Positions 40,778 to 40,888 of a stretch of 64,000 nucleotides of DNA are shown in pieces (position 1 is the first letter of the stretch; every line of letters begins with the position of its first letter). A model generated the notes under the pieces. That model was not told the DNA's origin and did no database searches. It was given only the letters and a program-made list of their open reading frames with translations. The position numbers and the translations under genes are program-made. Source of the stretch: an uncultured Rickettsiales bacterium (lineage in GTDB: Bacteria; Myxococcota_A; UBA796; UBA9615; CAYRNR01); assembly GCA_964436045.1 (NCBI GenBank), contig CAYTBN010000029.1:22714-86713 (forward strand), written 5' to 3'.

Positions 40778-40888
40778 CGGTCTCGGTCTCGGTCTCGGTC
40801 TCGGTCTCGGTCTCGGTCTCGGTCTCGGTCTCGGCCTCGGTCTCGGCCTCGGTCTAGGCCTCGGTCTCGGTAACGGCCTCGGCCTCGG
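40778..40888. repeat. hexanucleotide tandem repeat (CGGTCT/CGGCCT)n, about 18 units
   Basis: Direct reading. Encodes (ET/EA)n on the minus strand in the frame of CDS 40854..41456. An RP-repeat arises in another frame (track ORF 40598..40909). Confidence 0.9.

What the first reader, a model, noticed from the sequence alone, without database searches (positions are those of the whole stretch)
40778..40888. Hexanucleotide (CGGTCT)n repeat encoding an ET/EA tail, interrupted by an in-frame TAG with protein-like continuation
The zinc-ribbon protein (40854..41456) ends ...AEAESEAEAVTETEA at a TAG. The TAG is a single c-to-a change from the repeat unit (ggtctCggcc to ggtctAggcc). In the same frame the repeat continues (TEAETEAE(TE)n) and then gives QGPVLDMVLDDDEDLESAPRGLWAVVGRWARRR before the next stop at about 40622. 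So the original product was probably about 75 aa longer. Six-base units cannot frameshift, so this is a nonsense event or a readthrough site, not slippage. It is the second in-frame TAG found in this window, and both have protein-like downstream sequence.
Basis: seen in the sequence. Interest (0 to 1): 0.5.

Follow-up and report, generated by a model that had tools for sequence, protein, structure and literature searches.

The report
Nonsense mutation in a coding microsatellite
One Glu codon in a six-base repeat that encodes a (Thr-Glu)n tail has mutated to a TAG stop, cutting 60 codons off a small zinc-ribbon gene in a marine Myxococcota population whose neighbouring genes are also broken, so this is ordinary gene decay and not a new way of reading TAG.

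Summary
A 6-bp array (40777..40888; GAGACC/GAGGCC on the minus strand) encodes the acidic end of a 200-aa double zinc-ribbon ORF (41456..40854). One unit reads TAGACC.

The frame stays open for 59 more codons, to a TAG at 40676..40674.

The TAG is in all 10 metagenome contigs read that carry the gene. These contigs form one nearly clonal population.

The post-TAG tail has gene-like codon usage. It also carries the C-terminal motif of the only distant homologues (VFDxVFDDSxDGE, then basic residues; shuffle p about 0.002). So the ancestral ORF ran through the array, and GAG>TAG is a secondary nonsense change.

The perfect GAGACC run has 9 or 10 units in different samples. Half the contigs break inside it.

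The gene has also lost 157 codons between short direct repeats. It sits between an internally deleted AMP-binding gene and a serpin fragment.

The window's other in-frame TAG (22768) sits at a Q/E position of an FHA-GGDEF gene that a deletion has also truncated.

TAG ends six other ORFs whose in-frame continuation does not look coding. No suppressor tRNA or readthrough structure was found in the window. With this codon usage, 66% of single-base routes to a stop give TAG.

Verdict: ordinary truncation in a decaying region. Interest is low.

The parts
40854..41456 (-). Zinc-ribbon ORF as now terminated (200 aa, P0001). It has zinc ribbon 1, the PWLTPPQRRMLA segment, zinc ribbon 2 and an acidic tail.
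   Evidence: ORF and translation. GC by codon position is 0.73/0.52/0.89. The identical product is called in 10 contigs read. Only weak zinc-ribbon Pfam hits, all below cut-off.
40777..40888 (-). Hexanucleotide array GAGACC/GAGGCC (CGGTCT on the + strand). It encodes (E-T)/(E-A) dipeptides and spans the TAG.
   Evidence: TRF: period 6, 18.7 copies, score 168. Unit-by-unit listing. The perfect GAGACC run has 9 units in the window and L002, and 10 in L001, L003, L004 and L010.
40854..40856 (-). In-frame amber codon, a GAG>TAG change within one repeat unit (TAGACC).
   Evidence: Present in all 10 contigs that reach it.
40776..40853 (-). 26 repeat codons after the TAG: TEAETEAE(TE)9.
   Evidence: GC by position is 0.58/0.50/0.96. 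Codon log-odds is 1.29 per codon in frame. The GAG>GAA SNP in L007 and L010 is synonymous in this frame.
40677..40775 (-). 33-codon non-repeat tail, QGPVLDMVLDDDEDLESAPRGLWAVVGRWARRR. This is the inferred former C-terminus.
   Evidence: GC by position is 0.85/0.48/0.91. Codon log-odds is 0.36-0.37 in frame against -0.5 and -1.1 in the other two frames.
40725..40766 (-). VLDMVLDDDEDLES, a match to the conserved C-terminal motif of the homologues P0004, P0005 and P0006 ((S/V)VFD(K/Q)VFDDSxDGE).
   Evidence: MAFFT places it there without guidance. It is the top hit of 1159 six-frame peptides to an HMM of the three C-termini. 11 of 5000 shuffles score as high.
40674..40676 (-). Second TAG, the inferred original stop of the zinc-ribbon gene.
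   Evidence: The homologues also end a few basic residues after the motif.
41299..41315 (-). Junction of a 157-codon in-frame deletion relative to the orthologous gene in L092. It lies at an imperfect direct repeat (GCGCCGACGGTGGCCGA / GCGCCGTGCTGGCCGA).
   Evidence: Overlapping blastn segments. Junction alignment. P0003 and P0004 both have the roughly 155-aa middle domain that P0001 lacks.
41515..41955 (-). Remnant of an AMP-binding enzyme gene: the N-terminal third joined to the last ~10 codons.
   Evidence: Pfam AMP-binding positions 1-127 of 384 only. In L092 the last codons align after a complete AMP-binding_C end. Called as 146 aa in other assemblies.
40458..40646 (-). Serpin gene fragment (about 60 aa of about 370). 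It is in frame between the second TAG and the aminotransferase and is annotated as an N-terminal extension of the latter.
   Evidence: Pfam Serpin positions 271-318 of 370, E = 8.8e-6. Homologous aminotransferases start at the residue equivalent to M70.
39042..40412 (-). Class-III aminotransferase, with its true start at M70 of the annotated 525-aa ORF. This is the intact downstream gene.
   Evidence: Pfam E = 2.3e-89. Most of the 80 related loci match from about residue 70. The L013 gene starts there. dN/dS against L092 is 0.11.
22768..22770 (+). The window's other in-frame TAG. It lies in the linker of an FHA-GGDEF gene at a position that is Q or E in relatives.
   Evidence: Also present in 10 assemblies read.

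Best explanation
The acidic C-terminal tail of a small double zinc-ribbon protein is partly encoded by an expanded hexanucleotide microsatellite, (GAGACC)n, which gives (Glu-Thr)n.

A single G>T transversion changed one GAG of that array to TAG. This cut off 26 repeat codons and a 33-codon C-terminus that carried the family's conserved terminal motif and a basic end.

The array still changes length by whole 6-bp units through replication slippage, which cannot restore or shift the frame.

The truncation is one of several lesions in this lineage. The others are a 157-codon deletion between short direct repeats in the same gene, an internally deleted AMP-binding gene upstream and a serpin fragment downstream. 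The gene is therefore most likely a decaying remnant, or at best a shortened variant. The TAG is read as a normal stop.

Shown: the TAG, its fixation in the sampled population, the copy-number polymorphism, the deletions, and normal use of TAG as a terminator.

Inferred: that the tail was once translated, that slippage causes the 9/10-unit variation, and that the gene has lost its function.
For: 1. Identical repeat units lie on both sides of the single TAGACC unit, and the array has no other stop in this frame. An ORF reading into the array before the change must therefore have run on to 40676.

2. The post-TAG tail looks like coding sequence in exactly this frame. GC by position is 0.85/0.48/0.91. 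Codon log-odds is 0.36 per codon, a value reached by only 1.8% of stop-free off-frame windows and 9% of rough 'intergenic' windows.

3. The tail matches the C-terminal motif of P0004, P0005 and P0006, which share the zinc ribbon 1 / PWLxxPQRxMLA / zinc ribbon 2 / acidic tail / basic end architecture. The post-TAG peptide is the best of 1159 six-frame peptides, and 11 of 5000 shuffles score as high.

4. The TAG is in all 10 contigs read, from NCBI, ENA and Logan assemblies. This rules out a read or assembly error.

5. The GAGACC run has 9 or 10 units. This indel is the only difference between the window and L001 over 14.4 kb.

6. Other lesions are documented: the 157-codon deletion at a direct repeat, the AMP-binding remnant and the serpin fragment.

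7. TAG ends 9 of 40 gene-like ORFs. For six of them the in-frame continuation is short or not coding-like.

8. 66% of single-base sense-to-stop routes give TAG in this codon usage.

9. No tRNA with a CUA anticodon, no Rfam hit, no terminator and no RNA structure beyond shuffles (z = -0.01) were found around the site.
Against: - The motif match covers only 14 residues, rests on three homologues, and is not significant as a database E-value (1.8 for 1159 peptides). BLASTP finds nothing.
- All contigs with the TAG come from one nearly clonal population. No allele with GAG at this position and no close relative with this tail was found, so the direction and age of the change are inferred from the sequence and not observed.
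- Both deletions in this neighbourhood, and the one at the FHA-GGDEF gene, are in frame. Between the window and L092 the gene has dN/dS of 0.35, which is below 1. The shortened protein may therefore still be made and used.
- Only 64 kb of the genome could be searched for a suppressor tRNA.
Confidence: 0.78

Rival explanations
1. Functional readthrough or amber suppression. TAG is decoded at some frequency, by a suppressor or near-cognate tRNA or by pyrrolysine machinery. The cell then makes both a 200-aa and a roughly 260-aa isoform carrying the conserved C-terminal motif, and likewise a fused FHA-remnant-GGDEF protein.
For: - Two in-frame TAGs lie in 64 kb, both at Glu/Gln-type positions and both followed by intact, coding-like sequence.
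- The post-TAG tail retains the family motif.
- The one SNP in the post-TAG repeat is synonymous in frame.
- The base after the TAG is A. From general knowledge of E. coli this is not the strongest termination context.
Against: - Six other ORFs end at TAG with a short or non-coding-like in-frame continuation. The A2M gene has a TGA two codons later.
- No tRNA(CUA) or pylT is in the window.
- No structure lies downstream of the TAG.
- Both TAG-bearing genes also carry disabling deletions.
- The GGDEF domain has its own ATG 10 codons after the TAG and is called as a separate gene in all assemblies read.
- The coincidence of two TAGs at E/Q positions is expected from codon usage: 0.66 and 0.52 per event.
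- In the papers retrieved, amber reassignment is described for phage lineages such as Crassvirales (PMC11210395). Those papers do not describe it in free-living bacteria.
Confidence: 0.06
2. The TAG is the original stop codon, and the repeat downstream of it is a non-coding microsatellite that expanded in the 3' untranslated region. Nothing was lost.
For: - An open frame of 59 codons is not rare at 70% GC.
- Every sampled contig has the TAG.
- No allele or relative with a sense codon at this position was found.
Against: - Units identical to those upstream lie directly downstream of the single TAGACC unit. Tandem duplication cannot copy units across it without also copying the TAG.
- The non-repeat tail has in-frame codon usage and periodic GC.
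- The non-repeat tail also matches the homologues' C-terminal motif.
Confidence: 0.07
3. The origin is the same nonsense mutation, but the shortened 200-aa protein is still functional. The loss of the tail was neutral or even selected, and the gene is not a pseudogene.
For: - The body of the ORF keeps gene-like periodic GC.
- dN/dS against L092 is 0.35 over 82 shared codons, which is below neutrality.
- The 157-codon deletion is in frame.
- There is a plausible Shine-Dalgarno sequence (GAGG) 7 nt before the ATG at 41456 (read from the sequence).
Against: - The dN/dS value averages over both lineages and over the time before the lesions.
- The whole middle domain and the conserved terminal motif are gone.
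- The genes on either side are remnants.
- The population is too clonal to show current constraint.
Confidence: 0.25
4. The TAG is a sequencing or assembly artefact inside a repeat that is difficult to assemble.
For: Five of ten contigs end inside the array, so assemblers do struggle with it.
Against: The same TAG at the same unit appears in all 10 contigs read, from different samples and three assembly pipelines (NCBI WGS, ENA, Logan). The flanks are identical.
Confidence: 0.01

Closest known systems
Bacterial pseudogenes formed by nonsense mutation plus deletion (as described for Mycobacterium leprae, Salmonella Typhi and Shigella; from general knowledge)
   Same: - A single-base stop sits at a position that is sense in the repeat and in the ancestral reading.
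- The downstream sequence is still recognisably coding.
- Further lesions (deletions, neighbouring gene remnants) lie in the same region.
   Different: - The organism is an uncultured, 70% GC marine Myxococcota population.
- The genome-wide pseudogene load is unknown.
- The deletions seen are all in frame, so loss of function is inferred and not shown.
Dipeptide-repeat regions encoded by 6-bp or 18-bp DNA repeats, e.g. the Ser-Asp (SD) repeats of staphylococcal ClfA/Sdr proteins (from general knowledge)
   Same: - A six-base period encodes an acidic dipeptide repeat.
- Copy number varies between isolates by whole units without changing the frame.
- A second such array, (EP/DP)n, sits intact in another gene of this window.
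   Different: - There is no sequence relationship.
- The protein has no signal peptide or wall anchor.
- The repeat is interrupted by a stop.
Phase-variable contingency loci (simple-sequence repeats that switch genes on and off by slippage)
   Same: - A slippage-prone simple repeat lies inside a reading frame and is polymorphic in copy number in the population.
- It is the most variable site in 14 kb.
   Different: The unit is 6 bp, so length changes cannot shift the frame. The off state here comes from a point mutation, not from slippage, and slippage cannot reverse it.
Amber (TAG) recoding: pyrrolysine decoding and TAG reassignment in phages such as Crassvirales (PMC11210395)
   Same: An in-frame TAG is followed by coding-like sequence, and this is seen twice in one window.
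   Different: - TAG terminates other genes normally.
- No suppressor tRNA or downstream structure was found.
- The TAG-bearing genes are otherwise damaged.
- The region is chromosomal and not phage-like.
Uncharacterised zinc-ribbon family P0003-P0006 (metagenomic hypothetical proteins of 479-494 aa)
   Same: - It shares the N-terminal CxxC...CxxC ribbon and the PWLxxPQRxMLA segment.
- With P0004-P0006 it also shares the second ribbon, an acidic disordered tail and a terminal V(F/L)DxV(F/L)DD motif followed by basic residues.
   Different: - The window's copy lacks the roughly 155-aa helical middle domain.
- Part of its tail is a microsatellite.
- It is cut by the TAG before the terminal motif.
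- There is no Pfam, NCBIfam or PDB match for the family.

Membership tests
Nonsense-truncated gene / pseudogene | The stop codon lies at a position that is a sense codon in the ancestral or related sequence. | tested here: met
   TAGACC sits among GAGACC/GAGGCC units on both sides. No GAG allele was observed directly, so this is inferred from the array.
Nonsense-truncated gene / pseudogene | Sequence after the stop retains homology to, or the coding signature of, the original protein. | tested here: met
   Codon log-odds is 0.36 per codon in frame, reached by 1.8% of off-frame windows. The C-terminal motif match is reached by 11 of 5000 shuffles and is the top of 1159 peptides. The motif is short (14 aa).
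Nonsense-truncated gene / pseudogene | The gene has lost its function (no product, or relaxed constraint). | tested here: inconclusive
   The 157-codon deletion and the lost terminal motif argue for loss. dN/dS of 0.35 against L092 and in-frame lesions argue for some retained constraint. The population is too clonal to test.
Amber suppression / pyrrolysine / TAG reassignment | A tRNA with a CUA anticodon (or pylT with pylS) is present in the genome. | tested here: inconclusive
   None is in the 64-kb window (ARAGORN; Rfam).
Amber suppression / pyrrolysine / TAG reassignment | TAG is not used, or is rarely used, as a genuine terminator. | tested here: not met
   9 of 40 gene-like ORFs end at TAG. 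For six of them the in-frame continuation is short or not coding-like.
Amber suppression / pyrrolysine / TAG reassignment | In-frame TAGs recur at conserved sense positions of otherwise intact genes. | tested here: not met
   Only two cases exist. Both are in genes with large deletions and both lie in linker or low-complexity sequence.
Amber suppression / pyrrolysine / TAG reassignment | A stimulatory RNA structure lies downstream of the TAG (PYLIS-like). | tested here: not met
   The fold of the 211 nt around and after the TAG is no better than shuffles (z = -0.01).
Phase-variable contingency locus | The repeat unit length is not a multiple of three, so slippage switches the frame. | tested here: not met
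   The period is 6. The observed variants differ by exactly 6 bp.
Phase-variable contingency locus | Copy number is polymorphic within or between populations. | tested here: met
   There are 9 or 10 perfect units among six complete contigs, and five contigs end in the array.
Zinc-ribbon family P0003-P0006 | An N-terminal CxxC...CxxC ribbon and a PWLxxPQRxMLA segment. | tested here: met
   87% and 78% identity to P0003 in these two segments, and 35-36% identity to P0004. The Cys, W, P, Q, R, M, L and A columns are invariant.
Zinc-ribbon family P0003-P0006 | A helical middle domain of about 155 aa between the two segments. | tested here: not met
   It is absent from the window's gene. The deletion junction is at 41299..41315.
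Zinc-ribbon family P0003-P0006 | A C-terminal V(F/L)DxV(F/L)DD motif followed by basic residues, within the ORF. | tested here: not met
   The motif is present in the DNA (40725..40766), but it lies after the TAG and so outside the current ORF.

The most novel reading that the evidence does not exclude
This Myxococcota lineage tolerates or uses low-level amber readthrough. The TAG in the repeat then gives a minor 260-aa isoform that regains the conserved C-terminal motif, and the TAG in the FHA-GGDEF linker gives a minor fused protein. This would be a case of regulated TAG leakiness in a free-living bacterium that still uses TAG as its second most common terminator.
Probability: 0.05. Interest if true: 0.55.

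Novelty: new member of a known kind. Interest (0 to 1): 0.15.

Why it matters
It matters little beyond annotation.

- It shows that two suspicious in-frame TAGs in this window are products of ordinary decay (point nonsense plus deletions) and not a variant genetic code. It also gives the codon-usage reason why nonsense codons in a GC3-rich genome are mostly TAG.
- Two annotations can be corrected. The 525-aa 'aminotransferase' carries a serpin pseudogene fragment as a false N-terminus. The 146-aa 'AMP-binding' ORF is a remnant.
- There are seven lesions in 64 kb of a nearly clonal marine Myxococcota population. If that density holds genome-wide, it would be a mildly interesting sign of ongoing gene loss.

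Tried and rejected
- Exact look-up of the 219-aa version of the ORF found nothing. The called product is the 200-aa version.
- The word-indexed protein search found only the protein itself. The full HMMER search found just two relatives.
- The metagenome-contig scan gave one truncated contig without the repeat.
- The genome-contig scan with the aminotransferase gave 80 loci, none with a zinc-ribbon, AMP-binding-remnant or serpin-fragment neighbour. L013 has an unrelated divergent membrane-protein gene upstream.
- BLASTP of the 33-aa tail against P0004 gave no alignment. The motif appeared only in the MAFFT alignment and the HMM tests.
- Gene order around P0004-P0006 is conserved among those three but is not shared with the window.
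- Pfam, NCBIfam and PDB sequence searches gave no family for the protein.
- The AlphaFold model of P0004 from a 4-sequence alignment had a mean pLDDT of 39.5, too poor for a fold search, so none was run.
- Rfam found nothing in the window, and the promoter/terminator scan found nothing around the site.
- RNA folding after the TAG is no better than shuffles.
- I considered and rejected the idea that the repeat acts on the downstream aminotransferase promoter. The repeat lies more than 360 nt upstream of the true start, with a serpin fragment in between, and no promoter-like site was found.

Full report
**What is in the sequence**

On the minus strand an ORF runs from ATG 41456 to TAG 40856..40854 (200 aa).
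- It has two CxxC...CxxC zinc-ribbon motifs and an acidic C-terminal third. It gives only sub-threshold zinc-ribbon hits in Pfam and NCBIfam.
- Tandem Repeats Finder reports a period-6 array at 40777..40888 with 18.7 copies and score 168.
- Read unit by unit on the coding strand, the array is GTTACC GAGACC GAGGCC TAGACC GAGGCC GAGACC GAGGCC (GAGACC)9.
- The stop is therefore one unit of the array in which GAG has become TAG.
- The frame then stays open for 26 repeat codons (TEAETEAE(TE)9; 40853..40776) and 33 further codons (QGPVLDMVLDDDEDLESAPRGLWAVVGRWARRR; 40775..40677). It ends at a second TAG at 40676..40674.
The extension is 59 codons plus the TAG position.

**Is the continuation more than chance?**

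An open frame of 33 codons is not remarkable at 70% GC, so I tested the tail in other ways.
- GC content by codon position is 0.85/0.48/0.91, the pattern of real genes here.
- With a codon table built from 33 gene-like ORFs of the window, the tail scores 0.36 bits per codon in frame. True frames score 0.57 +/- 0.30. Only 1.8% of stop-free off-frame windows, and 9% of windows from loosely defined intergenic DNA, reach 0.36.
- The full HMMER search of 1.84 billion representatives found only two relatives, P0003 and P0004. P0004 has two closer relatives, P0005 and P0006.
- P0004-P0006 (489-494 aa) have this architecture: zinc ribbon 1, a ~155-aa helical domain, a PWLxxPQRxMLA segment, zinc ribbon 2, a ~200-aa acidic tail, a conserved terminal motif (S/V)VFD(K/Q)VFDDSxDGE, and then a basic end.
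- MAFFT placed the window's post-TAG VLDMVLDDDEDLES...PRGL...GRWARRR on that motif and basic end.
- An HMM of the three C-termini, searched against all 1159 six-frame peptides of the window, ranks the post-TAG peptide first. The database E-value is 1.8, which corresponds to about 0.0016 for one pre-specified peptide.
- Only 11 of 5000 composition-matched shuffles of the tail score as high.
- The match is short and BLASTP does not see it. Together with the codon evidence and the structure of the array, it still makes a formerly translated tail the best reading.

**Is the TAG real, and what do related sequences show?**

- The exact 200-aa product is on 18 contigs in public assemblies. I read ten of them, from NCBI WGS metagenomes, ENA and Logan. 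NCBI names one copy 'Myxococcota bacterium'.
- All ten have TAG at the same unit. This excludes a read or assembly error.
- These contigs differ from the window by 0-1 substitutions over 2-14 kb. They are one nearly clonal population and say nothing about long-term persistence.
- Five contigs end inside the array.
- The six that cross it have either 9 perfect GAGACC units (window, L002) or 10 (L001, L003, L004, L010).
- Two contigs carry a GAG>GAA change that is synonymous in the old frame.
- The 6-bp indel is the only difference between the window and L001 over 14,449 bases. The array is thus the fastest-changing site in the region, as expected for slippage. This variation cannot affect the frame.

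**The gene and its neighbourhood are damaged in other ways**

A TARA contig (L092) is the orthologous locus. It is 88-91% identical in the flanks, and dS is about 0.24. In L092 the order is: a complete AMP-binding_C end, a 479-aa zinc-ribbon gene (P0003), a 181-aa gene, an RCC1-repeat gene, and then the aminotransferase.

Relative to L092 the window shows four differences.
- It lacks 157 codons of the zinc-ribbon gene. The junction (41299..41315) lies at an imperfect 16-17-nt direct repeat, GCGCCGACGGTGGCCGA / GCGCCGTGCTGGCCGA. P0004-P0006 also have the missing domain, so this is a deletion in the window's lineage.
- Its AMP-binding ORF keeps only profile positions 1-127 of 384, joined to the last ~10 codons.
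- The segment 41214..40487 (zinc ribbon 2, acidic tail, array, post-TAG tail and what follows) has no counterpart in L092.
- Between the second TAG and the aminotransferase lies a ~60-aa serpin fragment (Pfam positions 271-318 of 370). It is in frame and wrongly annotated as the N-terminus of a 525-aa 'aminotransferase'. Homologues from 80 genomes, and the 88%-identical gene in L013, start at the equivalent of M70 (40412).

Over the 82 codons shared with L092, the zinc-ribbon gene has dN/dS of 0.35, against 0.11 for the aminotransferase. It was a real gene under constraint for at least part of that divergence. Whether the shortened version still works cannot be decided.

**The other in-frame TAG**

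The only other TAG with a coding-like in-frame continuation is at 22768..22770.
- It separates the C-terminal half of an FHA domain from a complete GGDEF domain.
- Close relatives (85-48% identity) are single ~330-aa FHA-GGDEF proteins with Q or E at that position.
- Compared with L110, the window has lost about 630 nt. This loss fuses the first 336 codons of an upstream 425-aa gene to the middle of the FHA domain.
- The next gene, bestrophin-like, is reduced to a 21-aa trace.
- The GGDEF part has its own ATG 10 codons after the TAG and is called as a separate 182-aa gene in all assemblies read.

This TAG is therefore also a nonsense change in a rearranged gene.

**Is TAG read as a stop here?**

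- Of 40 gene-like ORFs, 29 end in TGA, 9 in TAG and 2 in TAA.
- For six of the TAG-ended ORFs the in-frame continuation is short or not coding-like. The 2039-aa alpha-2-macroglobulin gene has a TGA two codons later.
- ARAGORN finds only a doubtful tRNA-Pro inside that gene, and Rfam finds nothing.
- The RNA after the TAG folds no better than shuffles, and no terminator-like site is near.
- From the window's codon usage, 66% of all single-base routes from a sense codon to a stop give TAG, and 52% of those start from GAG or CAG. Two nonsense events that are both TAG, both at E/Q positions, are what one would expect.
- In the papers retrieved, amber reassignment is described for phage lineages such as Crassvirales (PMC11210395).

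**Conclusion**

The best-supported account is as follows.
1. An acidic tail was partly built from an expanded (GAGACC)n microsatellite.
2. A G>T change made one unit a stop and removed 60 codons, including the family's terminal motif.
3. The array continues to slip by whole units.
4. The gene, already missing its middle domain, sits in a stretch of remnants.

I put this at about 0.78. Functional readthrough (0.06) and an original stop with a non-coding repeat behind it (0.07) are not excluded. A separate, overlapping question is whether the short protein is still useful (0.25).

What led nowhere:
- A structure prediction for the family had a mean pLDDT of 39.5.
- PDB and family libraries gave no match.
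- Gene order around P0004-P0006 is not shared with the window.

This is a new example of a known kind of event and is of low general interest. Its practical value is to correct the annotation of three ORFs and to remove the suspicion of a variant code.

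Noticed in passing
window 22768..22770 (+), with 22612..22722 (FHA remnant) and 22801..23349 (GGDEF): An in-frame TAG lies in the linker of an FHA-GGDEF gene. Relatives are single ~330-aa proteins with Q or E at that position. The GGDEF part is intact, has its own ATG 10 codons after the TAG, and is called as a separate 182-aa gene.
   Followed up: yes
window 22575..22605 (+): This is the junction of a ~630-nt deletion relative to L110. 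It fuses codons 1-336 of a 425-aa gene in frame to the middle of the FHA domain, destroying that domain.
   Followed up: yes
window 23366..23428 (+): A 21-aa trace (90% identical) is all that remains of a 264-aa bestrophin-like gene, which is complete in the related contigs L109 and L110. In the window it is annotated as a 38-aa ORF.
   Followed up: partly
window 41515..41955 (-): This is an AMP-binding enzyme remnant: profile positions 1-127 of 384 joined to the last ~10 codons. The orthologous gene in L092 has a complete AMP-binding_C end.
   Followed up: yes
window 40458..40646 (-): A serpin fragment (about 60 of 370 residues) is in frame with, and annotated as the N-terminus of, the class-III aminotransferase. 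The true start of that gene is 40412. An alpha-2-macroglobulin gene, also a protease inhibitor, lies about 4 kb away at 29907..36179.
   Followed up: partly
window 5807..5943 (+): A second hexanucleotide array (CCGAGC, 22.8 copies) encodes an uninterrupted (EP)n/(DP)n acidic stretch inside gene 4762..6099. Acidic dipeptide microsatellites recur in this genome.
   Followed up: partly
window 30129..30214 (+): ARAGORN calls an 86-nt tRNA-Pro(GGG) antisense inside the alpha-2-macroglobulin gene. Rfam's tRNA model does not reach threshold there, so it is probably a false positive.
   Followed up: partly
L005-L009 (contig ends), equivalent to window 40784..40826: Five of ten public contigs carrying the gene end inside the 6-bp array. 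This suggests copy-number heterogeneity within samples that breaks short-read assembly.
   Followed up: partly
window 42234..42270 compared with L009 649..658: One ENA contig has about 10 nt where the window has 37 nt, inside the 517-aa ORF 41882..43435. This is a small structural variant in an otherwise identical population.
   Followed up: no
window 36908..29907 (-) and 18853..24390 (+): There are runs of three or four consecutive ORFs in the same reading frame, separated by single stops: a 74-aa ORF, an LMW phosphatase and A2M in one run, and CarboxypepD_reg, the 378-aa ORF, GGDEF and a 346-aa ORF in the other. Apart from the FHA-GGDEF case, they look like separate genes that share a frame by chance.
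   Followed up: partly
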